Source: Candidatus Gottesmanbacteria bacterium
GTDB lineage: Bacteria > Patescibacteriota > Microgenomatia > UBA10105 > UBA927
Length of the DNA: 64,000 nt
Assembly: GCA_963714095.1 (NCBI GenBank)
Contig: OY970230.1
Coordinates: 198,206-262,205 of the forward strand
Direction of reading: 5' to 3'
The notes beneath the pieces were generated by a model. That model was not told the DNA's origin and did not search any database. It saw nothing but the letters and a program-made list of their open reading frames with translations. Below are positions 4,996 through 40,020 of the stretch, piece after piece. Numbering within the stretch: the stretch's first letter is position 1; every line of letters begins with the position of its first letter. The translations under genes were made by a program, and so were the position numbers.

Positions 4996-5634
4996 CTAGA
5001 CTGCGCCTTTACCGGAGATCATTGCCCACGGACTCCTGAAAAGTATGGCGATATCCATGAGCAGTGACCGTTTTTTTACGTAATCCGCATCCATTTTAAT
5101 CCGTTTATCAAAATTCACCTCGCTTCTCCCCGACACCTGCCAATGCCCGGTAATGCCAGGTTTGGCAGACAGCACAATTTTCACTAAATTTTTGGTATGC
5201 GGGTATTTCCGCTGCTGTTCCACGAGTTCGTCCGGATAATACGGACGGGGTCCCACGAGACTCATGTCTCCGCGGATCACATTCACAAGCTGGGGAATTT
5301 CATCAAGAGAATGTTTCCTTATAAACCGTCCCACCCGAGTGACCCGGGGATCATCCAACAGTTTGTAACTATTCCGTTTATATTCGCTGTACAGTTTTGC
5401 CAACTTAGGATCACTCCGGAGCTGTTCATGGGCATTCACGACCATGGAGCGGAATTTAAAGAGTTTAAAGAGTTTCCCGTTTTTTCCGACCCGCTGGGGA
5501 GTATCGGCAAATACCGGACCTTCACTATCCAAAACAATTGCGACGGCTGTAATAAGGCTGATCGGCAGAAACAAAAGGAATATGAATATGCTTCCCACAA
5601 GATCAATGCATCGTTTAATAAACGTGTATATCAT
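4996..5634 (-). CDS. Polyprenyl-phosphate sugar-phosphate transferase, small PglC/WbaP-C-terminal type (initiating transferase)
   Basis: Single N-terminal TM. The KFRSM motif and the [21 protein letters not shown] motif are hallmarks of the 'bacterial sugar transferase' family. Confidence 0.85.
5455..5475. repeat. Short in-frame tandem repeat (tttaaagag x2 + ttt) inside the sugar-transferase gene
   Basis: Direct 9-bp tandem duplication. It encodes KLFKLFKF immediately before the conserved KFRSM motif. Confidence 0.5.
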
Positions 5635-6729: not shown

Positions 6730-7817
6730 TGTATTTTTGTGGCGAGTCTTTCAACCGTGACCCGCATTTCTTTTTTAAATCTTTCTATACCAAAACGTTC
6801 TGCGTTAGCTCTGCATGAACCGCTATCATACCACCCTTTGTTAAATATATGCAAAGCGCGGATCAACGATTCTTTTGTCTGTGCATCAAACAAAATTCCT
6901 GTTTTCCCTTCGATCACAGTTTCCGCCATGCCGCTCTGTCGATAACAGATAACCGGCTTACCGCACGATTGTGCTTCAAGAGCGATTAAACCAAAATCCT
7001 CATCGCCTGCGAACACAAAAGCACGGCACCTTTGATAATAGGCAACAAGATCTGCGTCTGTCAAATAACGCGTAATAAAAGTGATATTATTTTTTGCCCT
7101 CCTCTGCAACACCCGATTGCCCAATCCGCTCCCGATAATTATGAGCGGCCAGCCAAGCTCGTTAAACGCATCAATGACGAGATCTATGCGCTTGTATGGG
7201 ACAAAGCGGGATACCAAAAGAAAATAATTTTCCTTATTCTTTGCAATTCTAAATGTATTCGTATCTATCGGAGGATAAATCACCGTATCGACGTTGCGAT
7301 GATAATATTTCTTTATACGATCCGCGACGTGGCTCGAAATAGTAATGTAATAATCAGGCCGGGAAGAGGCAATTAAATCCCACCGCTTCAGGGTTGGTGT
7401 AAACATTTTCAACATACGTGCGGATACATAATCGGCCCGTTCCATATAGGTCGAATTTCCGCTCCATAAATACCGTGTCGGCGTAAGGCAATAGCAAATA
7501 TGGACGGTGCCCGGCTTGGTAATGATGTTTTTGGCTTCGGCAGACGTCACTGATAGAACCACATCGTACGCGTCAAAAGAAAATGACTCAAACGCCATAG
7601 GGGTAAGCCACGGAAACAGTTCGTGATGCCTTTTTGCAAACGGCACATGCTGCAGAAACGAAGTGTGAACGTCAAAAACGTCTGCCCATGACGCACGGCG
7701 CGGATCATAGACTGCGGTAAAAAGAGGCGCGTCCGGCCAAATCTCATGAAGAGCGAGTAAGACTCGTTCCGCCCCGCCCCATTTATTAACCCGGTCGTAC
7801 ACCAGTGCAATTTTCAT
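6726..7817 (-). CDS. Glycosyltransferase family 4 (GT-B fold)
   Basis: C-terminal domain carries the EX7E-type motif (FAGDEDFGLIALEAQSCGKPVI). ATGA overlap with the upstream manC. Confidence 0.8.
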   Translation of the reverse strand: MKIALVYDRVNKWGGAERVLLALHEIWPDAPLFTAVYDPRRASWADVFDVHTSFLQHVPFAKRHHELFPWLTPMAFESFSFDAYDVVLSVTSAEAKNIITKPGTVHICYCLTPTRYLWSGNSTYMERADYVSARMLKMFTPTLKRWDLIASSRPDYYITISSHVADRIKKYYHRNVDTVIYPPIDTNTFRIAKNKENYFLLVSRFVPYKRIDLVIDAFNELGWPLIIIGSGLGNRVLQRRAKNNITFITRYLTDADLVAYYQRCRAFVFAGDEDFGLIALEAQSCGKPVICYRQSGMAETVIEGKTGILFDAQTKESLIRALHIFNKGWYDSGSCRANAERFGIERFKKEMRVTVERLATKIQ

Positions 7818-8271
7818 ATATTTTTAACGTATCACTCGCCATTTTGTGCCAGGAATATTTTTTCACAATACTTGAATCAACTGGTGGTCTTTTTTTTGCT
7901 GCACGGGTCAAAATTTTTGCAAGATCCTCTGCGCTGTGCGGATCAAAATAGATTGCACAGTTCCCGAGTATCTCATGAAACACAGGAATGTCGCTTACTA
8001 TCACGGGACAATTATTTGCAAGAGCTTCAAGGGCCGGAAGACCGAACCCTTCCATAAGCGAAGGAAACACGAGCGCCTGGGCATTTTTATATAACTCTGA
8101 AAGTTCTACGTCGGTTACGGTTTTGGGTTGTACCCCTAATCGTTTATAGAAAAAATCATCGTTCCCGACAAAAACAACCCGTACACCGGCCTTCAATGCA
8201 GCGCGCATAAGTAACTCCACATTCTTATGCGGGTATGCATTCCCCACGTATAAAAAATAGTTATCCTTCAT
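7786..8271 (-). CDS. GT4 glycosyltransferase, C-terminal (donor-binding) domain only
   Basis: YFLYVGNAYPHKN...FPSLMEGFGLPALEALANNCPVI is the GT4 C-domain motif. The ORF starts 11 nt inside the end of the preceding N-domain ORF, in another frame. Confidence 0.6.
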   Translation of the reverse strand: MKDNYFLYVGNAYPHKNVELLMRAALKAGVRVVFVGNDDFFYKRLGVQPKTVTDVELSELYKNAQALVFPSLMEGFGLPALEALANNCPVIVSDIPVFHEILGNCAIYFDPHSAEDLAKILTRAAKKRPPVDSSIVKKYSWHKMASDTLKIYENCTGVRPG

Positions 8272-8782
8272 AAATAACTTCTATCTGCTCGGACAACACA
8301 TCAAAATGATCAAGAATTTCTTTTTTCGTACTTTCCGAAACGGCAATTATTTTTTCGCTCCAGAAAATTGCTTTTAACAGAGAAATATAATATCCCAGGC
8401 GGCGGATTTTGTAGAAAACATACGACAGCGTCGTTGCTTTTCCTGTGTCAAAATGCAAAATCGTCAGGTCGTGGATGGTCACGATACATTTTCCGAAATA
8501 GAAAAGCGGGACATTAAAATAGGGAACATGCAAAAGATCGAGATGCTCACTGTTAAAAATCGCCGGCATGAACAGCTGTTCAGTGACACTATGCCATGGA
8601 ATGTCCGCTAACCGTTTCGTCCATCTGGCATTAGGCAATGCAAACGAATCAAACGCAGATTTCCGTAAAAAAACCACGTAGGAATTTTTATCATCAATCT
8701 TCCCCAATTCTGCAATAAGATTGCGGACATATCGTCCGACGCCGGTCTCGTTTACAAGACGTGCATCTATGCCTATCTTCAT
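8261..8782 (-). CDS. GT4 glycosyltransferase, N-terminal (acceptor) domain only
   Basis: MKIGIDARLVNETGVGRYVRNL... ends at VIYEG exactly at the GT-B interdomain linker. It is a paralog of the N-termini at 17765..18325 and 16635..17768. Confidence 0.6.
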   Translation of the reverse strand: MKIGIDARLVNETGVGRYVRNLIAELGKIDDKNSYVVFLRKSAFDSFALPNARWTKRLADIPWHSVTEQLFMPAIFNSEHLDLLHVPYFNVPLFYFGKCIVTIHDLTILHFDTGKATTLSYVFYKIRRLGYYISLLKAIFWSEKIIAVSESTKKEILDHFDVLSEQIEVIYEG

Positions 8783-10790: not shown

Positions 10791-12236
10791 TTACTTTGCC
10801 GCAGCAGGTGTCGCTTCTTTTGGCTTTGTTAAATCAATGATTGCAAATGTATCGTTCCGTACTAATACCGTGTACTTTGCGGCAAGGTCGCGGGTCTCAG
10901 TATCGGCATCGGTTGGTGACACGGTGACGTATGCAGTTGCTCCCATGGCGATTTTCTTATCGATATCAAACCCCTCGGGCCAACCCTGACGCTGGGTCTG
11001 ATACAAAAATGTCGTGTCTCCGTTATATGGCGCTATCACTTTGGCATCTTTCGGAAGTATAGCGTCGGCGGCTTTCCCCGCCGCAACAATTTCAGGATGA
11101 TTAATCCAATAATATGTCCGTATCGTAAACCATGAAAAACCGAGCGCCGCGGCTATACTTAGAATCGCGACGATAATCCCGGGAATTTTCATTCTGAACA
11201 GTGATACGAAGCCTTTCGCGGTATAAATCGCGACAACCGGAAGAATAAGAATTTGATAATAATCATGCTGGACGTTGCCTGTGGCAAAAATAATAAAATA
11301 CAGAAGAGTTCCGACGGCTAACCATCGGAAAATCCATCCTTCTTTTTTATCCGCAGATGACGCCAGGCCTAAACCGAACGGGATAAGCCCCCAGAATCCG
11401 AGGATAAGATCTCCCAAACGGGTCGCAAAAAGCCAGTGAAACCATGCGCCTTTGAAGCGGATACCGTTGCCGTTTAATAACCATGTACTTGCCGGAATGC
11501 CTTCCGGAAATTGAAGTATCCAGCGGCGCCATAATAAAAGTGGGATCACCGAAATAGTGCCGTACAGAAGGTATTTAAAAAATGTTTGTTTCGAAATACC
11601 AGATTGCCTAAAAATAATATACGGGATGGGAATAAGAAGAAATACCGCCATGGGTTTAGACAACAATGCCAATGCGCCTGCAATAGCGCTGACAATGACC
11701 CAGCGAAAATTTTTCCTCCGCCCGACCAGCCACAAACTCAACACGGACCAGAATACCATCTGCGGATCCGGCAGTATGGTTCTGCCGTAGTACATACTGT
11801 ACGGCAGTACAGCAAAAAGAAATGCAGCAAACAAACCGGTAACAGGGTCAATATATTGGGCTACCAATAGTCCTAAGACAACCGTTGTTCCGGCGGATGC
11901 CGCGATCGTCACGATTCGGAGCCACACTTCAATCGGAATCTTCGGAATACTCAATTTGCCCAATACCGCAATAACCTGATAGATCGGGAATTCCACCATC
12001 CGCCAGCCCTGCGGGTTATCTTTACCGGATTGAATGTTCGAGAGGTCATCATATCTCGGGTGTAGTGGGTCTATCCCGAACCGCAAAAAATTCCGGGCAA
12101 CAGCAGCGGTATCGGCCTGGCGCCAACTATGCCAGTCCGCGACCGGATACGTAATATGGTATAACCGCACACCACAAGCCGCCACGCCAATACAAAACAA
12201 AAGGGGAATAAAATATTTAGCGATAAATTTTCCCAT
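10791..12236 (-). CDS. Polytopic membrane protein, candidate GT-C-fold glycosyltransferase (ArnT/PMT-like)
   Basis: About 12 predicted TM segments. An acidic loop motif follows TM1 (DWHSWRQADTAAVARNF), as in GT-C first periplasmic loops. Confidence 0.5.
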   Translation of the reverse strand: MGKFIAKYFIPLLFCIGVAACGVRLYHITYPVADWHSWRQADTAAVARNFLRFGIDPLHPRYDDLSNIQSGKDNPQGWRMVEFPIYQVIAVLGKLSIPKIPIEVWLRIVTIAASAGTTVVLGLLVAQYIDPVTGLFAAFLFAVLPYSMYYGRTILPDPQMVFWSVLSLWLVGRRKNFRWVIVSAIAGALALLSKPMAVFLLIPIPYIIFRQSGISKQTFFKYLLYGTISVIPLLLWRRWILQFPEGIPASTWLLNGNGIRFKGAWFHWLFATRLGDLILGFWGLIPFGLGLASSADKKEGWIFRWLAVGTLLYFIIFATGNVQHDYYQILILPVVAIYTAKGFVSLFRMKIPGIIVAILSIAAALGFSWFTIRTYYWINHPEIVAAGKAADAILPKDAKVIAPYNGDTTFLYQTQRQGWPEGFDIDKKIAMGATAYVTVSPTDADTETRDLAAKYTVLVRNDTFAIIDLTKPKEATPAAAK

Positions 12237-12239
12237 ACA

Positions 12240-15233
12240 TTATTTTTCGACTTTCATAAGCTGTTTCAACTGATAGTTTTCGAAAATAAATCTCTCCGCT
12301 GCAAACCCTACTTGTACTGGCGTGCTATATGCGGCTTCAGGCGTTGAAACGTTTGTCGTCGTATACCCATATGCATTCAACCGGAAAATATGCCACAAAG
12401 GATCCGCTAACCCTGTCGGGAAAATCCACGCGCGCCCGTACCTGATTGGCGTATTGATAAATATGAAACTGGTATATTGCCGAAGCGGGAAAAATTGCTT
12501 ACTTAAAGCAAGAAGTGTATTCTGGGAAACGGAACTTGCTTTTTTCCAATCAGTACTCAAACGCCCGATTTCCGACACATTCCATACGATAAGTCCTGCG
12601 ATTGCGGCAACGACAACGAATTTCACGGCGGCCTGCCGTGAGCGTTTCCACCATACAGATATCCCCGTACCCAGTGCCACAATAAAAAATCCGCTCGCGG
12701 CAAACACGTACCGTTCACTCATGTTTCCCAACCCGATAAATGCCAAAAGTGCAACGAAGCCGCATAATGCCCAGAAAAACACTGCGCGGTACGCGGCAAC
12801 GCGGCGCCAAACTTTCCATACGCATGCGGCAACGCCACCGATAAGCAATAACCCAGTCCCCACGGCAATCATGCGATGAATCCGCAGATACTCCCGCAGT
12901 ATTCCCCAGGATTCAATGACGCGGGTTCCGAAAAAGGTTGAGACGACATAGCCGACGGTGTTTCCGATAACGTTAAACGGCAACGTCGAGAGTTTGTAGC
13001 CATAATCTCCTGATGGAGGCACAGCACCCGAAGCAGTCCTGACAATCCAATACAGCGGTATTGCTATCAAAGGTAAGAACGTTGTCCAGTGGCGTTTACC
13101 CAGTATTACCCACGCAACGAGACAGTAAATAAGAGGCGCGACGATCATCCCATCATATGAGAGCATAGCGGACACGAGTAAAAGGAGTGACGCACAATAT
13201 ACTACCCATTTACCCCATGTAGGGCGCCGTCCGTACATCACCAAAAGAACGATACTGCCGAACAAACTGGCTGCAGAAAGTAAACTGCTCTGCCCTGAAA
13301 TCCAAAAAACATTTTCGTTGTGTATGGCAAGTGAAGTAAAGAGCAAGGCAAAAACCAGCGCTACCCAACGTTTGACGTCCGTCAGAACCAGCAGAAGATA
13401 CACAAAATACGCGCTTACGGCCAAAAGCAGGTACGACAAGAAGTGATACCCTTCGGGCTTCAGCCAAAACACCGCATACAGGACAAAATACCAAAACTTC
13501 GGTATCGGACGATAAAAAAATCCCTGGGCATTCGTAAAGTACGAAAGCAAACCCGAGAACGGCGTACTGGCTGCCCACCGCAGCCAGGTAAAATCATCCG
13601 CGACGAAATAGTTAGAAATGGAAGAACCGAAAAGCACAATGGCTGCCAGAAATAAATACATGGCATATGCGATATCATGCGTTAATGCGCGCCACATCAG
13701 TCTCATATAATCCGTAAACCGAAATTCAACCGTCGTAAGGAGTGCAAGCGCGACTCCAAGGAGTAACCATAACGTAAAGGCCACCTTCGACGCTTCAAAC
13801 ACGTCAATAAGAATCCCGTTAAATATTAAACCCGTGAGACCTCCGAATACGCCGACAACAAACGCCTTCTGATATCCGACGAGCGTTTCTTTCCGCCTGA
13901 AAAATATAACATAGGCGGCAAGAAGTATCCCTAAAAACGCAACAGTTCCCAATATGCCGGTTTCACCCAGCATCCTGACATAATCGCCGTCGGATGCCAC
14001 TGATAGCGTCGAATAGCCGCTCCCCAACAGGATATTCCGTTTGAAAGCGGTCATTGCTAGAGGCCACTCCCCCTGCAGACGCGTCGTGATGGAAATGTCA
14101 TAAACGAGCGCCTTCTGGATGAGGAAGCTTCCGGAAACCGTAGCGATTTCTCCCGTTCCGCTTTCGAGACTCACGCTGGTGTAAGAAATCGTCTTTACCT
14201 GGCTCGAAGCCGAAGCAGGCGCCTGCGACGCAGGCAAACCGATATATTCACTTCCTGTCGGCAAATTTTCCACAGCCGGAGATGCAGACTGCTGAACAAC
14301 CGCAGTTGTCCCTTCGAGGGACGCAAGTGTCCCGACCGGTTTACCGGTAGACAAATCCACAATGACGTCATTATATCTGAATGTTTTATAAAACCGATCC
14401 GATGCACCATTAAAAAAATTCAGCAGGAAAAAACTGAAGAGTATAACCGGAATGATAAACCATTTCTTTTTATACCAAAAAAGCATCACGCTTATCGCGA
14501 CAAGATACACGAGAAACGACGTCCGTGATTGTGTGAGAAACAGCATGACGAGCGATCCGACGGACACCATGAAAAATATAATTTTCTGCCACAGTTTATT
14601 GGCCGCAAATACAAACGCGGTAAGAATCGGAACGGTGAAAACGACAAATGCAGCAAGATCATAATGTCCTCCAAAGGTTGAAGGGATGCGCGCCGTAGGC
14701 GGAAGACGAAGCGGTATTCCCTTTGCGAACTGCTCGTTCATCGTCAAAAATGCCGGCCAGCCGAAAAATTTTTCACCAAGTCCGTATACGATAATGCCTA
14801 CTGTTGTTCCCACAAGCGTCCAGATGACCGCCGTAACCAACGACTTCTTCCTGGCAACGACGTCAAATGCTATAAAAAACAGCATCATGTATTCTATCCG
14901 CCGGAGCCAATGCAGCAAAACAAGATGGGGGAAATACCCGACAAGCTTTGGACCGATAAAAATCATGGAAAAGACAGCCGAAATAAGGCCGACGCCCCAA
15001 AAAACAAGAATCGGCCATGTAAGCGGCGTTTTCGGAATATGACGCTGCTGTAGGCGCAGCAGAACATACACACCAACTGCAGCCGCAACAAAAAAATCTT
15101 CCAGGCGTATATAAACAAACGTCCGGATAACATTAATAAGCGGCAACTTCGGATAGAGCGGAATAAACGCCAAAAAAAACAATATCGTCAGTCCGCCGAT
15201 GTTACTGGTTAACCAATGCAAGGCCTTCTTCAT
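12240..15233 (-). CDS. 997-aa fusion membrane protein: N-terminal O-antigen ligase/Wzy-like domain plus a C-terminal second polytopic (GT-C-like) domain
   Basis: The LTQSRTSFLVYLV motif and a large loop ending RMLGETGILG resemble the Wzy_C/WaaL family. A Ser/Thr/Ala-rich linker is present. The C-terminal half has about 10 further TM segments with a VADDFTWLRW motif. Confidence 0.55.
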   Translation of the reverse strand: MKKALHWLTSNIGGLTILFFLAFIPLYPKLPLINVIRTFVYIRLEDFFVAAAVGVYVLLRLQQRHIPKTPLTWPILVFWGVGLISAVFSMIFIGPKLVGYFPHLVLLHWLRRIEYMMLFFIAFDVVARKKSLVTAVIWTLVGTTVGIIVYGLGEKFFGWPAFLTMNEQFAKGIPLRLPPTARIPSTFGGHYDLAAFVVFTVPILTAFVFAANKLWQKIIFFMVSVGSLVMLFLTQSRTSFLVYLVAISVMLFWYKKKWFIIPVILFSFFLLNFFNGASDRFYKTFRYNDVIVDLSTGKPVGTLASLEGTTAVVQQSASPAVENLPTGSEYIGLPASQAPASASSQVKTISYTSVSLESGTGEIATVSGSFLIQKALVYDISITTRLQGEWPLAMTAFKRNILLGSGYSTLSVASDGDYVRMLGETGILGTVAFLGILLAAYVIFFRRKETLVGYQKAFVVGVFGGLTGLIFNGILIDVFEASKVAFTLWLLLGVALALLTTVEFRFTDYMRLMWRALTHDIAYAMYLFLAAIVLFGSSISNYFVADDFTWLRWAASTPFSGLLSYFTNAQGFFYRPIPKFWYFVLYAVFWLKPEGYHFLSYLLLAVSAYFVYLLLVLTDVKRWVALVFALLFTSLAIHNENVFWISGQSSLLSAASLFGSIVLLVMYGRRPTWGKWVVYCASLLLLVSAMLSYDGMIVAPLIYCLVAWVILGKRHWTTFLPLIAIPLYWIVRTASGAVPPSGDYGYKLSTLPFNVIGNTVGYVVSTFFGTRVIESWGILREYLRIHRMIAVGTGLLLIGGVAACVWKVWRRVAAYRAVFFWALCGFVALLAFIGLGNMSERYVFAASGFFIVALGTGISVWWKRSRQAAVKFVVVAAIAGLIVWNVSEIGRLSTDWKKASSVSQNTLLALSKQFFPLRQYTSFIFINTPIRYGRAWIFPTGLADPLWHIFRLNAYGYTTTNVSTPEAAYSTPVQVGFAAERFIFENYQLKQLMKVEK

Positions 15234-16071
15234 ATATTGTGACCAAATCCTGCTTTCCGAGGATTTTACCGATACTAATTGAAACGGTCGCCTTAACCGT
15301 CAACATAAATTTTAACACAGATACCTCCTGCGGTGTTTTGTGCTTCCGATAAAAATACAGAAGCCCGCGGAATATATTTGCCACTGGCGCCCGCTTATTG
15401 CCGCTGGAAGCGGCACCGGTATGAATAAAGCGCGCGTCAGGAGTAAAAAAGACGGAATATCCTTTTCGAGCCGCACGATAGAGAAATTCTATCTCATCCA
15501 TATACATAAATATCCCCTGATCGAATAACCCCACATCATAAAAAGAGTCCCTAGTGCCGAGTAAACATGCTCCTGACACCCAACCAACACGCCTCGTATG
15601 GTCCGGCGAATACCGGGTTATCGATATCTTATCTCCGCGGCAAAACAACATGAGAAATATATACCAAAGGGAAAACTCGGGCCCGCAGGACGGCTGAAGC
15701 GATCCATCCTCGTTGTAGAGTTTTCCTCCGACGAAAGATTTAGGATGTGCCAGAGCAAATTCATATAATTTTTCAAAAGCACCATTGAGCGCATCGATAT
15801 CGGAATTGAGCATAAGAACATAGGTCCCCTTCGCAATATGAAGACCCATGTTATTGGCGGTACCATAACCTACATTTTCCTTATTGAGTATTTTTATTAC
15901 CTGAGGAAATTGTGTATTCAACATCGCAACAGAACCGTCACGGGACGCATTATCGACAACAATGATTTCATATGTCAACTTGGAATGTTTAAGAGTCTCA
16001 ACGATTGACCGCAGACACCGCCCCGTCAAGTGTTTAGTGTTAAAACTGGGGATAATAATTGATAGATCCAT
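15202..16071 (-). CDS. Glycosyltransferase family 2
   Basis: MDLSIIIPSFNT...EIIVVDNASRDGS. Confidence 0.8.
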   Translation of the reverse strand: MDLSIIIPSFNTKHLTGRCLRSIVETLKHSKLTYEIIVVDNASRDGSVAMLNTQFPQVIKILNKENVGYGTANNMGLHIAKGTYVLMLNSDIDALNGAFEKLYEFALAHPKSFVGGKLYNEDGSLQPSCGPEFSLWYIFLMLFCRGDKISITRYSPDHTRRVGWVSGACLLGTRDSFYDVGLFDQGIFMYMDEIEFLYRAARKGYSVFFTPDARFIHTGAASSGNKRAPVANIFRGLLYFYRKHKTPQEVSVLKFMLTVKATVSISIGKILGKQDLVTIYEEGLALVNQ

Positions 16072-16638: not shown

Positions 16639-17768
16639 ACTTTGCCTCCCACTTTTTCCAATACCTCCAGTGTCTGTTGTGCCGCTTTTTCCCATGTAAA
16701 TTTTTTCACCTGTGCAAGTCCCGCGTCCACACGCTGCCGCCCTTGTATCAGGTTTCTCTGCCGTACTGCCGTAAGAAGCCCGGCAGCGATACTTTCTGCA
16801 CTACCCGCGTCCACATAAATCCCTGCCCTGCCAGCTATCTCAGGAAGACTGGAAACGTTCGAAACGACTACTGGGCATTTATACGCCATCGCCTCCAGAA
16901 CCGGAAGCCCAAACCCTTCGTACAGGCTCGGGAGAGCAAAACAGAGCGCATGTTTGTAAAAAGACGGAAGTTCACCATCAGGCACAAAATCCAAAAATTT
17001 TACGCTCTGAATGACTCCGAATTTTTTCGGAGCGGCAAGGATATCCTCATACAGCCAACCCTTTTTCCCGATGATGACAAGCTGAAGATCGGAGAACTTC
17101 TGCTTATTGGTTCCGATAAACCGTGCAAACGCCTCGATGAGCTTCACATAATTTTTTCTTGGCTGAATCGTGCCTACAGATAGGATAAAATTCCTGCTCA
17201 TATCGTATTTTTTTGTCAACGTTTCAATTGGAACAGAGGAAGTCGTTTTTTTATCCATAGTGAAACCGGGATACATCACAAAAACCCTATCCCCGGATAC
17301 GTGATATTGCCTAATTATAGCATTTTTGCTGAACTCGCTTATCGTCAGTATCCTTGCCGCATGTGCGACTCCATACCCTGTCCATTGCTTCAGCTGATAC
17401 AGATCCTTCGGTTTAAACATTTCGGGATACAACAGGTACGACAAATCCATAATCGCCATCACCCTGGGAACGCGTACAAAACGGGGTATATAGTGCGTCG
17501 GAGAAAACATAACATCAAGTGCAGGCTCCTCTTTCCGAATCGCCAGAGGCAATCCCACCAACGTCCATAATTTCGACGGTCTGCATACGCGATACTGCCA
17601 GTACCTCGTTTCTTTCGGCATATCATTTTGCGCAGACCCGGGCAAAAACACAGTTACGTTGTGCCCAGCCATGAGCGGATAAAGATGCACAAGAATTTCG
17701 TACGCGTACCGGCCGATACCCACGCGGTTAACGACATTTGCTTCATACCCGTCGATTCCTATATTCAT
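16635..17768 (-). CDS. Glycosyltransferase family 4 (full length)
   Basis: MNIGIDGYEANVVNRVGIGRY N-domain plus FALPSLYEGFGLPVLEAMAYKCPVV C-domain. Confidence 0.8.
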   Translation of the reverse strand: MNIGIDGYEANVVNRVGIGRYAYEILVHLYPLMAGHNVTVFLPGSAQNDMPKETRYWQYRVCRPSKLWTLVGLPLAIRKEEPALDVMFSPTHYIPRFVRVPRVMAIMDLSYLLYPEMFKPKDLYQLKQWTGYGVAHAARILTISEFSKNAIIRQYHVSGDRVFVMYPGFTMDKKTTSSVPIETLTKKYDMSRNFILSVGTIQPRKNYVKLIEAFARFIGTNKQKFSDLQLVIIGKKGWLYEDILAAPKKFGVIQSVKFLDFVPDGELPSFYKHALCFALPSLYEGFGLPVLEAMAYKCPVVVSNVSSLPEIAGRAGIYVDAGSAESIAAGLLTAVRQRNLIQGRQRVDAGLAQVKKFTWEKAAQQTLEVLEKVGGKV

Positions 17769-18325
17769 AATGAAAACCCCGGATATATAACGTGGAGTTT
17801 GCTTTCAGGAATGTGCAACAGCTCCATAATGTCTTTTTTTGTCGATTCACTGTCACAAAAAATGGCTGCGCATTCTTTTTTCACCCACCTGAGCCTCCGT
17901 GCATGCGTAGCCACAATACCCATATCCATTTCCTTTAGAAAACGTATCGTCGAAAGATCATGAACGGTTGTCACACCTTTTGCATGGAATAGCGGCGGCT
18001 GCGTCCAATCGCTGCTCCAAAAAACATCCAACGGCCCGGTAAATGTTTCAACAGGCAGAACATGAAAACTGTTCCACATGATGTCCAAGAGTTTCGGCGG
18101 AAGAGGAATCCTCTTTAATTCTACATTTGGATTTATCTTCCTCATTTCCTGAAAAAACTCTTCAAATATATGTTTTTTCCGGAGTGATGCGCCGAATAAA
18201 ACATATGTATTTCCCTTATCAATTTTTAAAAGCGTTTTAACCATGCGCCGGACATAGGCTGCCACTCCGGTGCCCTCGTAGACTATCTGGCTGATATCTA
18301 TTCCGATACGCATATACCCTATCAT
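17765..18325 (-). CDS. Orphan GT4 N-terminal domain (186 aa), no C-domain
   Basis: MRIGIDISQIVYEGTGVAAYVRR... ends VIYPGFSL at the interdomain linker. ATGA-coupled to the downstream full-length GT4. Confidence 0.5.
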   Translation of the reverse strand: MIGYMRIGIDISQIVYEGTGVAAYVRRMVKTLLKIDKGNTYVLFGASLRKKHIFEEFFQEMRKINPNVELKRIPLPPKLLDIMWNSFHVLPVETFTGPLDVFWSSDWTQPPLFHAKGVTTVHDLSTIRFLKEMDMGIVATHARRLRWVKKECAAIFCDSESTKKDIMELLHIPESKLHVIYPGFSL

Positions 18326-18326
18326 C

Positions 18327-19940
18327 TCATTTTTCAGGTAAATAATACAAAAACTCCTGTGCTTTTGCCCGTTGCTGTTGTGTTAACCCTGATACTAAAG
18401 ACTTTTTTATATAGAGACATGTAGGTTTTCCTTCCGAATACCACTGTGCATAGAAAGGTAAAAATTGGGACGGAAAACGCGGATGAACCGGTGCGTCCGG
18501 AGTGCAAAAATCATACAGGATATCCGGCGGATCATGGGTAAACATATCGATCATGGCGTTATAATATTTATCTTTAAATCGGATCGGGTAGTAAAACGAA
18601 TATGAATAAGAAGAACTCCTGCCTGATGCGACATACAAAAACTCATCCGCTCCGTTGGTAAAAAGCGTTTGCTGAGGCACAGTTACTGCTTTAATAACTT
18701 CACTTATCTGCAAATAATTCCCGTAATTGGTGATAAACTCCGTCTGCTCGTCAACGTGCTGGTAGATGAAAGATCGCGGAGAAAATAACACGTAGGCAAC
18801 TAAGCACCCTATGATAATAAAAAATATGTATCGTTTACGGACTACCCAAAGCATTTCATAAAAAAGATACAACGACGAAAACAGGAAAATACCATACCAG
18901 TTTATTTCGTGAAACGCTTCAAAATATTGCAAACCCGGAATTGCAGGCCGGAGATTTGCCAAACCCAAAACAATAAAAAGGAATCCCAATACCCACATGT
19001 TTTTCTTTGTTTTCAGCCACAGAAAAACAGAAAAACCAAAAACGACAGTCAAACATATCAATTGAATACGAAAATCATTCCACCTTCCGGCAATAAGAAT
19101 ATAGAGGGGGTAAAAAAATGACTTAACGACGCCGGTACCGAAAAAATGACCCGCTTGCAGCTCGCTGGGTAATCCTGTCTGTAAATTCAGGGTAATAACA
19201 TTATAAACAAAATCACGGACAGGAAACAATATGAATAATCCCGCGGTTAAAATAAAAAATATAGCGAGGGCGATTTTACCGACATTTTTGAAAAACACAG
19301 GGCGGATAATAATGCCAAAAAGAAATATCGCTACCAACACGTACGGTTCTCGCATAAACACAACAAACCATAGACACAGGGCTGTTAAAACGATCTCCCA
19401 ATGGAACACAGGTTTCTTGCGGAGCGTATGCAATCCCAAACCGGTTAGGTACACGAGGGGATATACGATAAAACCTTCAGCCAGAAACCTATCACCAAAA
19501 ACATAAAATTTTGAAAATTCATATAAGAGTGTATATGCAAATCCGGTTATTCCGAACCTCCAACAGATAAAAACGTCAAAAACAAATCCAAACACTAATA
19601 AAAACTGCCGGTGTTGCAATAACAATGCATATATATTAACCGGATGCCCATAGTGCTGAATAACCAAACTAAGATATGCCATAAGCGGCATGTGGTTAAA
19701 GTAAATTTGTGAATACAGTTGCTTGCCCTTCCCAATAAAATATCCGCCAACATAGTTAAAACAGTCATCGAAACAACCAAACGCATTAATTTTCGGAATA
19801 TAGATCTTATAAAGAAAATAATACACAGGGATAAGAAGAATAAACCAGATCGTCAGGCGTACTAACGGATGTGATAAAACGGCGTTCCATGCAAAAGCAT
19901 TATTCTTTTTTTGCATAAGGATCAGGGGAATAACCATCAC
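18327..19940 (-). CDS. Polytopic membrane protein (537 aa), candidate GT-C-like
   Basis: More than 10 TM segments, with a FGCFDDCFNY acidic motif after TM1. Confidence 0.45.
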   Translation of the reverse strand: MMVIPLILMQKKNNAFAWNAVLSHPLVRLTIWFILLIPVYYFLYKIYIPKINAFGCFDDCFNYVGGYFIGKGKQLYSQIYFNHMPLMAYLSLVIQHYGHPVNIYALLLQHRQFLLVFGFVFDVFICWRFGITGFAYTLLYEFSKFYVFGDRFLAEGFIVYPLVYLTGLGLHTLRKKPVFHWEIVLTALCLWFVVFMREPYVLVAIFLFGIIIRPVFFKNVGKIALAIFFILTAGLFILFPVRDFVYNVITLNLQTGLPSELQAGHFFGTGVVKSFFYPLYILIAGRWNDFRIQLICLTVVFGFSVFLWLKTKKNMWVLGFLFIVLGLANLRPAIPGLQYFEAFHEINWYGIFLFSSLYLFYEMLWVVRKRYIFFIIIGCLVAYVLFSPRSFIYQHVDEQTEFITNYGNYLQISEVIKAVTVPQQTLFTNGADEFLYVASGRSSSYSYSFYYPIRFKDKYYNAMIDMFTHDPPDILYDFCTPDAPVHPRFPSQFLPFYAQWYSEGKPTCLYIKKSLVSGLTQQQRAKAQEFLYYLPEK

Positions 19941-20914: not shown

Positions 20915-21136
20915 CTATTTTACTTTATTGGGCCGCAGGAGGGAAATCAGAAGGAAAGAGAGCGTGAACGCAGCACCATACCAAGTCAGACGCTCGGCGG
21001 TAAAAAAAGTCCACGTAGCAAATAACGGAATCGCCAAAACCCAGCTTGCGAGGCCGGCAAACAGAAATAACCGGGGCTTTCTAATTAAAAGTAATACGAC
21101 AAATACCAGAAAAAATCCTATATCCTGCGGCTTCAT
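20915..21136 (-). CDS. Small two-TM membrane protein (73 aa)
   Basis: Two hydrophobic helices. ATGA overlap with the upstream gene. Otherwise unsupported. Confidence 0.3.
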   Translation of the reverse strand: MKPQDIGFFLVFVVLLLIRKPRLFLFAGLASWVLAIPLFATWTFFTAERLTWYGAAFTLSFLLISLLRPNKVK

Positions 21137-22081: not shown

Positions 22082-22792
22082 CTATTGTAGCATACGGATA
22101 CGGATGGCTCCTGCAAGCGACCGCAGGAGTTCTTTCACGTTTGCATTGGAAGCTCCATGTGTTCTGTCCCGGAAACTTATGGGGACTTCCGTTATTCGAA
22201 AACTGTTCTGCTTCAGTTTATATGCTATTTCCGACAGTACGATAAACCCGGTTTCATGAAGGTGCACGCGCACCAAAAATTCCGCTGCTTTTCGGGAGTA
22301 TAATCGGAAACCGTTGGTATAATCCGTTAAGTGCAACCCAAGCCATATGCTTAACAAGGCGTTAATTACTCTGCTTTGAATAAGTCGACGCCACGGCCAT
22401 TTTACAATATGGCTCTGTTTAAGATACCGCGAACCGATAACCAAATCTGCCCCGCGGCGTACGGCTAAAAACCGTCCGAACTCTGCCGGTGAATGCGCTA
22501 GATCTGCATCCATCTCAAAACAATATTGTATTTCCTTATGTTTGAGGGCTTCAGCTAATCCCCGAATGACGGCACTCCCTCTGCCCATTTTGTGCTCGCG
22601 GGAAATAAGAACCACGTTGGGAAAATCCCTTTGAAGCATTCCTGACAGTTGTATTACTTCGTTGGCAGGAGAGTCATCAACAACCACGATCAGAGCATCC
22701 GGGAGGTATTTTTCTATATCTTTTAATAAAATACTTAAATTTTTTTGTTCGTTATACGCCGGAATAATGACTGAAATACCTTGATTATTCAT
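22082..22792 (-). CDS. GT2 polyprenol-phosphate sugar synthase (Dpm1/ArnC-like), soluble short form
   Basis: ISVIIPAYNEQKNL...VVVDDSP plus a C-terminal Dpm1-like segment. Confidence 0.7.
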   Translation of the reverse strand: MNNQGISVIIPAYNEQKNLSILLKDIEKYLPDALIVVVDDSPANEVIQLSGMLQRDFPNVVLISREHKMGRGSAVIRGLAEALKHKEIQYCFEMDADLAHSPAEFGRFLAVRRGADLVIGSRYLKQSHIVKWPWRRLIQSRVINALLSIWLGLHLTDYTNGFRLYSRKAAEFLVRVHLHETGFIVLSEIAYKLKQNSFRITEVPISFRDRTHGASNANVKELLRSLAGAIRIRMLQ

Positions 22793-22813: not shown

Positions 22814-25096
22814 CTAATTTTTTTCAAATATTGCTATTTGTGCGTTATCGAATATCTTTGTCAGGTGTAACGACGTAATTTCATAATCGGAAATATCAGA
22901 GCCCAGATATCTGGGGATAACAATAAGTTTACTGTCGTAATCTGATATCTTAAGAACGTTATCTTCCGGTCTCATAACCATTTCCCACTTTTTGCCGGTT
23001 ATCGTTTGTCCTATACGGTAGTCAGTATATACAATCGGTTTTACTGCTTTATATATCGGCAGTATCGAATTATCTACCTGCTCTACATACAACACGCTCT
23101 TTTTTTGATTTTTAATAATTTGCAGCGCATGTATTTCATACGTTGTAAGGGCATACTTGCTCCTTGAATAAACAACAGTTACTGCAAGAGACAACAGAAT
23201 GAGGGGAGGGATAATACTGCATAACACTAACATATTCCTCGTTTTGTACTTCCGGAATATAACGATAGCAATCGTAACCAGCACAATTGCAAGAACAGCG
23301 AGGGATGCAAATACAGCCCCGTATGTTGTTTTATCGAGAGGAAAATACGGAACATGCATATACAGAAATACCATCAGCGCATAATAGGCCCAATACAGAT
23401 ATTTCTTTACCTTTCCTGAAGGTCTAACGATGAATACATAATGAAGGACAAACAGGATAAAAAACGGCAGAACTTTACTGACGTACACGGTGGTTAAAAC
23501 GGGAAAAAGATGTAAAGAAAAAAGAATGATAAGTGGTATTGTCTCTTTTTTGTCAAAAAGAAAGGTTACATTTTGTACTAAAAACGGAAACGCAATAAGG
23601 AGCGGAAGGAGTAATAATAAAAACTCATTCACTGATGTCCGGATATTTTTTCTGATGCAACAGATGACGGCGAAATAGAGAATGTAGAGGACACAGAGAA
23701 TCTGAAATGGGCTCATTCCCGGTTTTTCCTGATCAAACGAGAAACTTTTTCCGCCGCGACTCTCAGGGTACACCTGTACTCCCGTCGGAGTAAAATATGC
23801 AACTTTATCGTTTCCTGCATACAGCTCTACATCGTTTCCTTTTTCCTTCGTCGTAAGCTGGTCGCTCGTTTTTCTGATGAAAATACCCTGATCGGGAAAG
23901 GTCATTGAATCAATAATTTCCTGCTCATTTATTCTTAAGGTTGGCTGACTGTTCGGAAGGATATCGAAATCCTCCGGAATCTTATCTGCGTAATTCCTTA
24001 GATCAACGAAAGAAACAACGCCGTTTATTTTCTGCACCGTCGCCCGGTAGTTTTCCGACATATACCAGAATGACTGATTGTTTGAGTCGTAATCCGTTGA
24101 GAGAAAATGGGTTCTGCCTGCAAATACTTTCTTCTGCGCCAAAAACCGCTGGGCGTACTCCTGTGCCGGCACTATATCTACTTTGCCGGATGCCTGTATT
24201 TCCCTGGCTTTGGTGAGCATCGTTTTATACGATTGCTGAAATGTTTCGAGTGTTTCTCCGTTCTCCAGTCCCATCACGAAATTGCCGAATGGTTTCTGCA
24301 AAAAAATCGAGGCAAGGTAGTCGACGTACTCCGGTGTATATCCTCTCGCCGAATAATCCTGCAGACTATACAAAGGATCTGCATACCCTTTAAGGGGATC
24401 CCGTATCGCCCACTGCAGAATTACCACCTTTGTGCTTTCGGCAAACGATGCTGCCGGTATTCCCTCATTCCCTTTTGAAGGAAGATACGGAATATCCCAC
24501 GGAGTCCCCCAAATGGAATACGTATCCAAATTAAATTGGTCTGCCGCCCTCAGAGCTGCGGTGATCCCGTATTTTTCCTGCATATAAGAAAGCGAGTCTC
24601 CGCCGATCCACCAGGCGCCGACTGTCTTGGGATAATATCCGAAAATTTCCTTAAATTTAAAAAAGGCCGCGTCTATCAACTTTCGTCTTTCGCTCTGATC
24701 ATAGGAGCTTAATAATAATCCGTCGGAAAAGTACCATTCCCCCTGTCCCCGAAACTGAACGTTGGATTTCTGGGCATAATTCCTGTCAATCTCAAACAGC
24801 AATCCGAATTCCTGGCCCTTCATTTCCTGTTTGGCAAATTCGGTCATGTCTTTATTCTCCAAAGCTCCATATTGAAACAGCCACGTCGCATAAACACCGA
24901 CCTCACTCGTAACCTGCCACTGAGCTTTCAGGCTGGCAAGCAAATCATCAGACGCGTGTCCGAGTCCGTTCCCCCGGACAAGATTGATGACGGTAATTGC
25001 GGGACGTGAGGCACTATCCTGAGCTTCGGAATGACACGGGAAGCAGAAAAAGAAAACAATGATTAAAAAAGTAAACAGAACAATTCTTTTTATCAC
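22814..25096 (-). CDS. Large secreted/membrane protein (760 aa): signal peptide, ~450-aa extracytoplasmic domain, C-terminal polytopic membrane region
   Basis: N-terminal signal peptide (IVLFTFLIIVFFFCFPCHSEA). The hydrophilic domain has no motif I can name. It is followed by at least 6 TM segments. Confidence 0.45.
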   Translation of the reverse strand: MIKRIVLFTFLIIVFFFCFPCHSEAQDSASRPAITVINLVRGNGLGHASDDLLASLKAQWQVTSEVGVYATWLFQYGALENKDMTEFAKQEMKGQEFGLLFEIDRNYAQKSNVQFRGQGEWYFSDGLLLSSYDQSERRKLIDAAFFKFKEIFGYYPKTVGAWWIGGDSLSYMQEKYGITAALRAADQFNLDTYSIWGTPWDIPYLPSKGNEGIPAASFAESTKVVILQWAIRDPLKGYADPLYSLQDYSARGYTPEYVDYLASIFLQKPFGNFVMGLENGETLETFQQSYKTMLTKAREIQASGKVDIVPAQEYAQRFLAQKKVFAGRTHFLSTDYDSNNQSFWYMSENYRATVQKINGVVSFVDLRNYADKIPEDFDILPNSQPTLRINEQEIIDSMTFPDQGIFIRKTSDQLTTKEKGNDVELYAGNDKVAYFTPTGVQVYPESRGGKSFSFDQEKPGMSPFQILCVLYILYFAVICCIRKNIRTSVNEFLLLLLPLLIAFPFLVQNVTFLFDKKETIPLIILFSLHLFPVLTTVYVSKVLPFFILFVLHYVFIVRPSGKVKKYLYWAYYALMVFLYMHVPYFPLDKTTYGAVFASLAVLAIVLVTIAIVIFRKYKTRNMLVLCSIIPPLILLSLAVTVVYSRSKYALTTYEIHALQIIKNQKKSVLYVEQVDNSILPIYKAVKPIVYTDYRIGQTITGKKWEMVMRPEDNVLKISDYDSKLIVIPRYLGSDISDYEITSLHLTKIFDNAQIAIFEKN

Positions 25097-25120
25097 AATG
25101 AATTATTTTAAAACATACCC

Positions 25121-26980: not shown

Positions 26981-26983
26981 ATG

Positions 26984-39983: not shown

Positions 39984-40020
39984 ACCTCGTATAATATATT
40001 TCTACCATGGTAGTCTGAAG

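What the first reader, a model, noticed from the sequence alone, without database searches (positions are those of the whole stretch)
12240..15233. 997-aa fusion of an O-antigen-ligase/Wzy-like domain with a second polytopic domain
The N-terminal half has the TQSR motif and a large periplasmic loop typical of the Wzy_C/WaaL family. After a Ser/Thr/Ala-rich linker comes a second block of 8–10 or more TM segments with a DD motif like the GT-C candidates. The locus has a Wzx flippase and a PglC-type initiator but no separate Wzy, so this fusion is the best polymerase/ligase candidate. A covalent polymerase-plus-GT-C fusion is unusual.
Basis: partly seen in the sequence, partly recalled or inferred. 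Interest (0 to 1): 0.6.

Follow-up and report, generated by a model that had tools for sequence, protein, structure and literature searches.

The report
Fused WaaL-like and GT-C glycosyltransferase
This gene encodes one 23-helix membrane protein that joins two different kinds of outward-facing sugar-transferring enzyme; it is conserved in hundreds of ultra-small (Patescibacteria) genomes, has never been studied, and probably performs two linked steps in building their surface glycan.

Summary
The 997-aa ORF (12240-15233, minus strand) is real and is a true two-module fusion. Residues 1-502 form 12 TM helices; the model's only PDB fold matches are WaaL and FtsW (GT-C_B). The E. coli WaaL TQTR215 motif appears here as TQSR237, but the ligase's catalytic His is absent. 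Residues 521-997 form 11 TM helices plus an outside tail; AlphaFold confidence is high (pLDDT 92). The top 20 PDB matches are all GT-C_A enzymes (STT3, PglB, ArnT, PMT, AftA). An invariant DD546/547 opens the first outside loop. No Pfam family covers this module. The Ser/Thr/Ala-rich stretch is not the linker. It is a variable insert inside the N-module's outside loop. The real junction is a constant-length, roughly 20-aa cytoplasmic connector. The fusion is intact in 80 of 80 Microgenomatia species genomes examined. It sits in a conserved GT2-fusion-PMT_2 triad within a PglC-initiated operon. In another, taxonomically unidentified set of contigs the two modules are separate adjacent genes in the same operon, and the C-module type also occurs alone. 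Both modules keep invariant outward-facing charged residues. Best reading: a coupled two-step extracytoplasmic glycan assembly enzyme. The exact reactions are unproven. It is a new variant of known kinds.

The parts
12240..15233 (-). Whole ORF: 997 aa, 23 predicted TM helices, N-terminus inside and C-terminus outside (stop codon 12240-12242)
   Evidence: ORF list. Hydropathy. AF2 helices of both halves. An identical protein, P0001, is present in public assemblies.
13728..15233 (-). N-module, aa 1-502: 12-TM GT-C_B (WaaL/Wzy/SEDS-like) module
   Evidence: Weak Pfam Wzy_C hit, aa 224-428, 23.7 bits against a GA of 31.7; 18/26 homologues also hit it. Foldseek gives WaaL 7tpg_B at E 3.6e-4, TMt 0.57, and FtsW 8p1u_A at E 0.027; every other match has E above 1.
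14658..14762 (-). Outside loop aa 158-192 (GWPAFLTMNEQFAKGIPLRLPPTARIPSTFGGHYD): the most conserved segment of the protein
   Evidence: Mean column identity is 0.81 over 81 species. R182, H190 and D192 are identical in 80 of 81. pLDDT is below 50 when the N-half is modelled alone.
14523..14534 (-). TQSR motif (aa 234-237) at the outer end of TM8. R237 is the counterpart of E. coli WaaL R215.
   Evidence: hhalign pairs LTQSR with LTQTR215. Conserved in 81/81.
13986..14420 (-). Large outside loop of the N-module (aa 272-416), with invariant R280, D379, R385 and D415
14154..14327 (-). Ser/Thr/Ala-rich variable insert (aa 303-360) inside that loop.
   Evidence: It is among the least conserved regions (mean column identity 0.38, against 0.37-0.38 for two C-module TM blocks). 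The enclosing R280-D379 stretch varies from 88 to 148 aa among 81 species. pLDDT is about 32-42. It lies within the Wzy_C match.
13962..13991 (-). DGDYVRMLGE (aa 415-424) at the start of the TM10 helix. D415 and R420 are invariant and E424 is identical in 80/81. This is the region where WaaL carries its catalytic His.
   Evidence: Position 419, which a forced alignment pairs with Ec H338, is L/F/H/M/V/I.
13674..13727 (-). True inter-module junction (aa 503-520): a short cytoplasmic connector containing an amphipathic helix
   Evidence: AF2 helix at residues 2-13 of the C-half. The K483-to-D547 spacing is 63-65 aa in 81/81 species.
12576..13673 (-). C-module membrane part (aa 521-886): 11-TM GT-C_A fold
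   Evidence: AF2 pLDDT 92.4, pTM 0.91. The top 20 Foldseek matches are all GT-C_A enzymes at probability 1.00: STT3, AftA, PglB, ArnT, Pmt, DPY19, AftD. hhalign against the neighbouring PMT_2 family gives probability 87%, E 3.9e-6.
13440..13613 (-). First outside loop (EL1, aa 541-598) with the catalytic-type DD546/547 (13593-13598) and R575/K579
   Evidence: D547 is 81/81. D546 is 80 D plus 1 E. R575 and K579 are 80/81. D546 and R575 are also invariant across free-standing relatives at 14-30% identity.
13302..13325 (-). IHNENVFW (aa 637-644) at the outer end of TM3 of the C-module. E640 and W644 are invariant.
12708..12731 (-). LGNMSERY (aa 835-842), an outside turn between TM9 and TM10 of the C-module. 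R841 and Y842 are conserved.
   Evidence: 79/81. R841 is invariant in the broad C family.
12243..12575 (-). Outside C-terminal tail domain (aa 887-997), mixed strand and helix, with the PIRYGRAWIFPTGL-D-LWH motif
   Evidence: AF2 strands at C-half residues 417-487, pLDDT above 90. Conserved in free-standing relatives.
15202..16071 (-). GT2 glycosyltransferase (289 aa). Its end overlaps the fusion start by 32 nt. It is a conserved upstream partner.
   Evidence: Pfam. Immediately upstream in 71/80 genomes. Its orthologue also precedes the split and the free-standing C-module forms.
10791..12236 (-). PMT_2-type GT-C (481 aa), 3 nt downstream. It is a conserved downstream partner and a remote paralogue of the C-module.
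   Evidence: PMT_2 at 35.5 bits, above the GA of 26.1. Immediately downstream in 76/80 genomes. hhalign.

Best explanation
The gene encodes a two-module extracytoplasmic glycan-assembly enzyme of a Gottesmanbacteria-like Patescibacterium.

Shown: the N-module (12 TM) has the WaaL/Wzy/SEDS (GT-C_B) fold. The C-module (11 TM plus an outside tail) belongs to an unnamed GT-C_A family with the ArnT/PMT/STT3 fold. Both carry invariant charged residues on the outside face. A constant-length cytoplasmic connector joins them. The gene sits in a conserved operon with a PglC-type initiator, GT4 and GT2 enzymes, an acetyltransferase and a second GT-C.

Inferred: the operon builds an undecaprenyl-diphosphate-linked oligosaccharide, which is flipped outward. 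The N-module uses it as donor. R237, R280 and R385 would hold the diphosphate and D415 would act as base. The most likely reaction is polymerisation, since the ligase His is missing and the host has no LPS. En-bloc transfer is the alternative. The C-module then acts on the same nascent glycan. DD546/547 with E640 would be catalytic, and R575, K579 and R841 would bind phosphate. Most likely it adds a sugar from a polyprenyl-monophosphate donor, as most GT-C_A families do.

Fusion keeps the two steps physically coupled. I put about 0.85 on 'both modules active and coupled in one pathway' and about 0.4 on this particular division of labour.
For: Sequence-level links are TQSR aligned to WaaL TQTR215, the weak Wzy_C hit, and the C family against the PMT_2 family at hhalign probability 87%.

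Both modules are under selection. There are 125 columns at 95% identity or more across 81 species with a median identity of 37%. R237, R280, R385, D415, R420, D477, K483, D547 and E640 are 81/81; D546, R575 and K579 are 80/81 and R841 is 79/81. The outside loops are the most conserved regions.

Evidence for coupling: the modules are fused in 80/80 genomes with a fixed junction length. In other contigs they are separate but adjacent genes, in the same order and the same operon, with all key residues kept. This is seen in L008, L009, L090, L091 and one JGI locus.

A PpgS/ArnC/AglJ-like polyprenyl-phosphate sugar synthase lies at 22082-22792.

From the literature: GT-C_B enzymes use lipid-PP-oligosaccharide donors. 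In that clan the His of the O-antigen ligase aligns with the catalytic Asp or Glu of SEDS proteins and polymerases. Most GT-C_A families use lipid-P-monosaccharide donors (PMC10920833).
Against: There is no biochemical data. Donor, acceptor and product are all inferred.

The N-module outside loops were modelled poorly (pLDDT below 50). The active-site geometry and the equivalence of D415 to the WaaL His are therefore unverified. The only alignment to WaaL beyond TQSR has probability below 1%.

No Wzz-type co-polymerase was recognised. The Wzx gene is 42 kb away.

The best Foldseek matches of the C-module are STT3 and PglB, which use lipid-PP-oligosaccharide donors. That would fit a ligase role instead, although TM-scores (0.32-0.51) do not discriminate among GT-C_A families.

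The upstream GT2 looks like an EpsD/WbbL-type enzyme rather than a GtrB/ArnC-type lipid-P-sugar synthase.

No full-length model could be made, so contact between the modules is not shown.
Confidence: 0.4

Rival explanations
1. Polymerase plus ligase. The N-module is a Wzy-type polymerase. The C-module is a WpsJ-like GT-C that transfers the finished lipid-linked polymer en bloc onto its final acceptor (another wall glycan, a lipid or a protein). This would replace WaaL or LCP in these monoderm-type cells.
For: A precedent exists with separate proteins. In Lactococcus lactis, WpsI polymerises the flipped subunits and the GT-C-fold WpsJ transfers the polymer onto rhamnan (PMC9574508). The top structural matches of the C-module are oligosaccharyltransferases. 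The adjacent PMT_2-type GT-C could then be the decorating enzyme. No LCP or WaaL candidate was seen in the window.
Against: Fold rank among GT-C_A families is not discriminating. The OST signature WWDYG is absent by direct reading of the sequence. Free-standing C-type proteins occur in ABC-transporter loci without any N-module (L007). The acceptor is unknown.
Confidence: 0.25
2. A protein O-glycosylation machine. The N-module is a PglL/WsaB-like O-oligosaccharyltransferase that moves the Und-PP-linked oligosaccharide onto Ser, Thr or Tyr of an S-layer protein or pilin. The C-module is a PMT-like enzyme that adds or extends sugars on the same protein.
For: Wzy_C-family proteins include O-oligosaccharyltransferases, and PMT-type GT-C enzymes O-mannosylate proteins (established knowledge). 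The operon has a small PglC-type initiator and roughly seven cytoplasmic glycosyltransferases but no recognisable chain-length regulator. That fits a single defined oligosaccharide.
Against: No target protein or sequon has been identified. No sequence-level match to PglL, WsaB or PMT families reaches threshold. The operon is also typical of polysaccharide loci.
Confidence: 0.15
3. Only one module is catalytic. The other is a degenerate membrane scaffold, or a lipid-carrier or acceptor-binding domain that positions substrate.
For: The canonical WaaL His is missing. The N-half loops did not fold confidently.
Against: Both modules keep sets of invariant outward-facing Asp, Glu, Arg and Lys residues over 81 species at about 37% identity. 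These residues are also kept when the modules are encoded as separate genes. The most conserved segments of the whole protein are N-module outside loops.
Confidence: 0.1
4. An artefact, or a single family: an assembly or frameshift chimera, or simply a large Wzy with a long C-terminal extension.
For: None was found. Only one Pfam family (Wzy_C) is detected by sequence.
Against: An identical protein occurs on independent assemblies. The ORF is uninterrupted in 80/80 species genomes. The C-half folds on its own as GT-C_A at pLDDT 92. It also exists as free-standing genes.
Confidence: 0.01

Closest known systems
WaaL O-antigen ligase (CAZy GT121; PDB 7TPG; E. coli WaaL)
   Same: A 12-TM GT-C_B fold; it is the best and nearly the only structural match of the N-module. 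There is a large outside loop before the last three helices. The first diphosphate-binding Arg sits in the same TQ(S/T)R context. The Pfam Wzy_C hit is weak.
   Different: There is no His in the large loop or anywhere in aa 191-504. The N-module has an extra, very highly conserved outside loop (aa 158-192). The host is a Patescibacterium, for which no lipid A-core acceptor is expected. The module is covalently joined to a GT-C_A module.
Wzy-type polymerases and SEDS proteins (CAZy clan GT-C1: GT119, GT125-129)
   Same: The same fold class; FtsW is the second structural match. According to PMC10920833, these families carry one or two conserved Arg residues plus a conserved Asp or Glu where WaaL has His. 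The N-module has invariant R237, R280, R385 and D415.
   Different: No sequence-level match to any polymerase family was obtained. The equivalence of D415 is not structurally verified. No Wzz-like partner was seen.
GT-C_A glycosyltransferases (STT3/PglB GT66, ArnT GT83, PMT GT39, AftA/Emb GT53)
   Same: The fold. A long first outside loop with short helices opens with an invariant acidic pair. Basic residues sit in outside loops. There is an outside C-terminal domain. The C-module shows remote homology to a PMT_2-family neighbour.
   Different: No Pfam, NCBIfam or PDB sequence match, even with a diverse profile. It has 11 helices and a small tail of about 110 aa. There is no WWDYG motif. The family comprises over 3,000 50%-identity clusters and has no name.
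Lactococcus lactis WpsI (polymerase) + WpsJ (GT-C ligase), and CsdA/CsdB-type three-component glycosylation systems
   Same: The same logic of two successive outward-facing, lipid-linked-donor-dependent steps on one wall glycan. A GT2 gene is encoded next to its GT-C partner (PMC9574508). Here a GT2 precedes the C-module in the fused, split and free-standing forms.
   Different: The lactococcal proteins are separate polypeptides. Homology to them was not tested. The GT2 here lacks the clear two-helix anchor and the ArnC/GtrB-type full-length match.

Membership tests
O-antigen ligase WaaL (GT121 / Pfam Wzy_C) | 12-TM GT-C_B fold with a large outside loop before the last helices | tested here: met
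   The AF2 N-half model has 12 helices. Foldseek's top hit is 7tpg_B at E 3.6e-4, TMt 0.57.
O-antigen ligase WaaL (GT121 / Pfam Wzy_C) | Pfam Wzy_C match at the gathering threshold | tested here: not met
   23.7 bits against a cut-off of 31.7 for the window protein. 18/26 homologues match at E below 1, and many homologues carry a precomputed PF04932 hit.
O-antigen ligase WaaL (GT121 / Pfam Wzy_C) | First diphosphate-binding Arg (Ec R215 / Cm R191) | tested here: met
   LTQSR237 aligns with Ec LTQTR215. R237 is 81/81.
O-antigen ligase WaaL (GT121 / Pfam Wzy_C) | Catalytic His in the large outside loop (Ec H338 / Cm H313) | tested here: not met
   The window protein has no His in aa 191-504. The forced-alignment position 419 is L/F/H/M/V/I across the family. 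The invariant D415 lies four residues upstream.
O-antigen ligase WaaL (GT121 / Pfam Wzy_C) | A lipid A-core acceptor is present in the organism | not testable with these tools
   Relatives are Gottesman-, Levy-, Woese- and Shapirobacteria. Absence of LPS in this group rests on general knowledge and was not checked genome-wide here.
Wzy-type polymerase / SEDS (clan GT-C1) | Conserved Arg(s) plus a conserved Asp or Glu at the position of the ligase His | tested here: inconclusive
   Invariant R237, R280, R385 and D415 exist. Their spatial equivalence could not be checked because the loops have pLDDT below 50 and the alignment probability is below 1%.
Wzy-type polymerase / SEDS (clan GT-C1) | Works with a Wzx flippase and a Wzz-type co-polymerase | tested here: inconclusive
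   Wzx is present at 57602-58858 but 42 kb away. No Wzz-like protein was recognised among the ORFs scanned.
GT-C_A glycosyltransferase superfamily | Conserved N-terminal TM module with a long first outside loop, and overall fold similarity to solved members | tested here: met
   pLDDT 92.4. The top 20 PDB matches are all GT-C_A at probability 1.00. hhalign against the PMT_2 family gives probability 87%.
GT-C_A glycosyltransferase superfamily | Invariant acidic residue(s) at the start of the first outside loop | tested here: met
   D546 and D547 follow TM1 directly. D547 is 81/81 and D546 is 80/81. D546 is invariant in free-standing relatives at 14-30% identity.
Oligosaccharyltransferase STT3/PglB/AglB (GT66) | WWDYG motif in a large C-terminal outside domain; 13 TM helices | tested here: not met
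   The sequence contains no WWD. There are 11 helices and a tail of about 110 aa.
PMT_2 / ArnT-like (Pfam PF13231, GT39/GT83) | Pfam family match | tested here: not met
   None of 26 fusion proteins or 10 free-standing relatives hit it. Only profile-profile similarity to the neighbouring PMT_2 protein family was found. UniRef's automatic name for P0067 is 'Glycosyltransferase RgtA/B/C/D-like domain-containing protein'.
IctB family (TIGR00947) | NCBIfam equivalog score | tested here: not met
   30 bits against a cut-off of 366.

The most novel reading that the evidence does not exclude
The fusion is a self-contained 'polymerise-and-attach' machine. A Wzy-like module hands the growing lipid-linked chain directly to a covalently tethered GT-C_A module. 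That module ligates the chain to the wall, S-layer or lipid acceptor. It would be a single-polypeptide substitute for the Wzy plus WaaL/LCP division of labour, specific to Microgenomatia and their relatives. It would define how these ultra-small bacteria anchor their conserved surface glycan.
Probability: 0.25. Interest if true: 0.75.

Novelty: new variant of a known kind. Interest (0 to 1): 0.55.

Why it matters
Outward-facing steps of bacterial glycan assembly (polymerisation, ligation, late decoration) are normally carried out by separate membrane enzymes. How these enzymes are coordinated is poorly understood.

This protein ties one GT-C_B module and one GT-C_A module together at a fixed spacing. 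A sister group encodes the same pair as two adjacent genes. That gives a ready-made system for studying substrate hand-off between the two GT-C classes, by structure or by heterologous reconstitution.

The analysis also exposes a large GT-C_A family with no Pfam or CAZy-style name: over 3,000 clusters at 50% identity. And it delineates a roughly 15-gene operon conserved across Microgenomatia. That operon probably makes a major surface glycan of organisms whose envelopes are almost unknown and whose lifestyle depends on cell-surface contact.

Tried and rejected
- Sequence searches of solved structures found nothing relevant. This was tried with the full-length family profile and with a diverse C-module profile.
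- Pfam and NCBIfam give only a sub-threshold Wzy_C hit and a very weak IctB hit. Nothing was found for the C-half in 26 fusion proteins and 10 free-standing relatives.
- hhalign of the N-module against a single E. coli WaaL sequence gave only the TQSR anchor. The forced global alignment has probability below 1% and was used only to locate the His region.
- hhalign and hmmsearch of both modules against the other unassigned polytopic ORFs in the window found nothing, except a weak C-module-like hit at 40021-41694. A separate Wzy can therefore be neither shown nor excluded.
- I considered that the 'split' loci might be fusions read with the wrong genetic code. This is rejected. L008 has TAG and TAA stops followed by its own ATG. 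L090 has TAA. L091 has an ATGA overlap in a different frame.
- I considered the upstream GT2 as a GtrB/ArnC-type lipid-P-sugar synthase. This is not supported. It matches EpsD, HpsE and rhamnosyltransferase models over its full length and ArnC only over the generic N-terminus. It has no clear TM pair.
- Both structure-prediction jobs went on the separate halves, so no full-length model was obtained.
- Four literature searches found no description of this architecture.
Full report
**The object.** The ORF at 12240..15233 on the minus strand is real and encodes 997 aa. An identical protein (P0001) occurs on independent public assemblies, on contigs of up to 1.09 Mb. The nearest named relatives are Candidatus Gottesmanbacteria, at 69-71% identity. 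The window is almost entirely one minus-strand glycan-biosynthesis island. It holds GT4 and GT2 glycosyltransferases, sugar-nucleotide enzymes and acetyltransferases. It also holds a PglC-type initiator (4996-5634), a Wzx-type protein (57602-58858) and at least six other GT-C-like or unassigned polytopic proteins.

**Anatomy.** Hydropathy and the AlphaFold models give 12 TM helices in aa 1-502, a short cytoplasmic connector (aa 503-520), 11 TM helices in aa 521-886 and an outside tail (aa 887-997). Loop charges follow the positive-inside rule. The topology is N-terminus inside and C-terminus outside, so every strongly conserved polar residue faces outward.

It sits inside the N-module's large outside loop (aa 272-416) and inside the Pfam Wzy_C match (aa 224-428). 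It is among the least conserved parts of the protein. The enclosing R280-D379 stretch varies from 88 to 148 aa among 81 species. By contrast, the spacing across the true junction (K483 to D547) is 63-65 aa in all 81 species.

**N-module.** By sequence there is only a sub-threshold Wzy_C hit (23.7 bits against 31.7) and a very weak IctB hit. 18 of 26 homologues also touch Wzy_C. The model has confident helices (pLDDT about 90) but poorly modelled outside loops. Its only meaningful PDB fold matches are the O-antigen ligase WaaL (7tpg_B, E 3.6e-4, TMt 0.57) and FtsW (E 0.027). That places it in the GT-C_B class.

hhalign aligns LTQSR237 with E. coli WaaL LTQTR215, an essential Arg. T234, S236 and R237 are identical in 81/81 species.

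The ligase's catalytic His is not present. The window protein has no His between aa 191 and 504. The position that a forced alignment pairs with Ec H338 is variable. Instead D415, R420, R280, R385, D379, D477 and K483 are invariant and E424 is identical in 80/81. According to PMC10920833, the ligase His aligns with the catalytic Asp of SEDS proteins and with an Asp or Glu of inverting polymerases in the same clan. The N-module's residue pattern therefore looks more polymerase/SEDS-like than ligase-like. This equivalence is unverified.

**C-module.** No Pfam, NCBIfam or PDB sequence match exists, even with a diverse profile. The AlphaFold model is very confident (pLDDT 92.4, pTM 0.91). Its top 20 PDB matches are all GT-C_A glycosyltransferases at probability 1.00: STT3, AftA, PglB, ArnT, Pmt, DPY19 and AftD.

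DD546/547 lies directly after the first helix, at the start of a long outside loop with short helices. This is the classical catalytic position in GT-C_A enzymes. D547 and E640 are 81/81, D546, R575 and K579 are 80/81, and R841 and Y842 are 79/81. D546, R575 and R841 remain invariant in relatives at only 14-30% identity. A profile-profile comparison links the family to the neighbouring PMT_2-type GT-C family (probability 87%, E 3.9e-6, 313 columns). The OST-specific WWDYG motif is absent.

**Distribution and architecture variants.** The protein search returned at least 1,972 homologues, and the best 120 are nearly all full-length proteins of about 1,000 aa, with three shorter sequences among them. 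A scan of species-representative genomes found at least 589 with a relative. The best 80 (33-71% identity) are Gottesman-, Levy-, Woese- and Shapirobacteria and unclassified Patescibacteria. All 80 carry both modules in one uninterrupted ORF. A GT2 lies immediately upstream in 71 and a PMT_2-type GT-C immediately downstream in 76.

The wider operon is conserved: epimerase, a 73-aa membrane protein, GalE, GT4 N-domain protein, GT4, acetyltransferase, GT2, the fusion, PMT_2, GT4, GT2, GT4, GT4, ManC, PglC.

An exhaustive search with the C-half alone found 3,214 clusters at 50% identity. I classified the best 149:
- 48 are full or partial fusions.
- About 20 are convincing free-standing proteins of roughly 450-640 aa, most of them 450-500 aa, starting with their own Met and first TM helix.
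- The rest are fragments.

**The split form.** In four independent loci (L008/L009, L090, L091 and one JGI locus without DNA) the same operon encodes the two modules as separate adjacent genes. The N protein is 524-540 aa (HMM E of 1e-126 to 1e-131). The C protein is 457-480 aa. They keep the same order, between the same GT2 and PMT_2 neighbours. Genuine stops and own start codons are present, and all key residues are retained. This is classical Rosetta-stone evidence that the two modules work together.

In contrast, L007 carries a C-type protein with the orthologous GT2 upstream but no N-module nearby, in an ABC-transporter locus. The window's own ORF 40021-41694 is a distant C-type paralogue, also with a GT2 upstream. 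The C-type enzyme can therefore work without the N-module.

**Mechanism.** Shown: two distinct GT-C-class modules, both with conserved outward-facing charged residues, rigidly tethered and co-inherited, within a PglC-initiated glycan operon.

Inferred from family knowledge (PMC10920833):
- The N-module uses the flipped Und-PP-oligosaccharide as donor.
- The C-module most likely uses a polyprenyl-monophosphate sugar.
- A PpgS/ArnC/AglJ-like synthase is encoded at 22082-22792.

I therefore favour an 'assemble and decorate' enzyme. The N-module polymerises the unit, or transfers it en bloc, and the C-module adds a further sugar to the same nascent glycan. I put about 0.4 on this division of labour and about 0.85 on the more general claim that both modules are active and coupled in one pathway.

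Three rivals remain:
- A polymerase plus en-bloc ligase pair, analogous to the separate WpsI and WpsJ of Lactococcus (PMC9574508).
- A protein O-glycosylation machine.
- One inert module, which the conservation data disfavour.

An artefact, or a single-family reading, is excluded.

**Novelty.** Both modules belong to known superfamilies, so this is not a new kind of system. The covalent GT-C_B plus GT-C_A architecture was not found in the literature searched. The C-module family has no curated name. Public records call these proteins hypothetical, 'O-antigen ligase', or, in one UniRef entry, 'RgtA/B/C/D-like'. I rate it a new variant of a known kind, of moderate interest.

**Limits.**
- There is no full-length structural model, because both prediction jobs went on the halves.
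- The N-module active-site loops are poorly modelled.
- Donor, acceptor and product are all unassigned.

Noticed in passing
window 7786-8782 (-): A GT4 glycosyltransferase is split into two ORFs that overlap at ATGAAGGATAA. One is 8261-8782 (173 aa, N-domain) and the other is 7786-8271 (161 aa, C-domain). Homologous operons have one gene of 363-375 aa here. This may be a frameshift, a pseudogene or a genuine split.
   Followed up: partly
window 20915-21136 (-): A 73-aa ORF with two or three hydrophobic helices lies between the two epimerase genes. A 73-aa gene sits at the same place in three homologous operons (L004-L006). It could be a small membrane partner of a glycosyltransferase or a flippase component. 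Its function was not tested.
   Followed up: partly
window 18327-19940 (-): A 537-aa protein with about 8 TM helices and no Pfam or NCBIfam match is inserted between GalE and the GT4 N-domain gene. It is absent from this position in the homologous operons L004-L006.
   Followed up: partly
window 38820-42709 (-): A second, free-standing and very distant paralogue of the C-module lies at 40021-41694 (557 aa; local HMM E 4e-5, hhalign 391 columns). It has its own GT2 upstream (41672-42709, overlapping) and a GT4 downstream. The layout is the same as in the unrelated locus L007.
   Followed up: partly
window 22814-31629 (-): A run of four large polytopic membrane proteins (760, 619, 580 and 986 aa). 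None has a family assignment apart from a weak DUF5667 hit in the last. Any of them could be a flippase, a polymerase or a further GT-C.
   Followed up: partly
window 12243-12575 (-), aa 927-953: The tail motif GRAWIFPTGL-D-LWH resembles the repeated blade motif of the Photorhabdus PLL/PHL lectin beta-propellers (GRLEVFARGTDNALWH). The match is not statistically significant (E 1.5), and only one copy is present.
   Followed up: no
window 22082-22792 (-): A 236-aa GT2 matches polyprenyl-phosphate sugar synthases (AglJ, PpgS, ArnC) over its whole catalytic domain. It is a likely source of lipid-monophosphate sugar donors for the many GT-C enzymes of this island. It is not at this position in L004, where the large upstream ORF abuts the epimerase gene; in L005 and L006 the fetched flank does not settle it.
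   Followed up: partly
loci L011-L089 (genome contigs): Many third-party-assembled MAG records that carry this Patescibacteria-type gene and operon are titled 'uncultured Gammaproteobacteria'. These are probably placeholder or erroneous organism names.
   Followed up: no
window 17765-18325 (-): A stand-alone 186-aa protein consists only of the GT4 N-terminal domain (Glyco_transf_4). It precedes a full-length GT4 and is conserved as a separate 182-194 aa gene in homologous operons.
   Followed up: no
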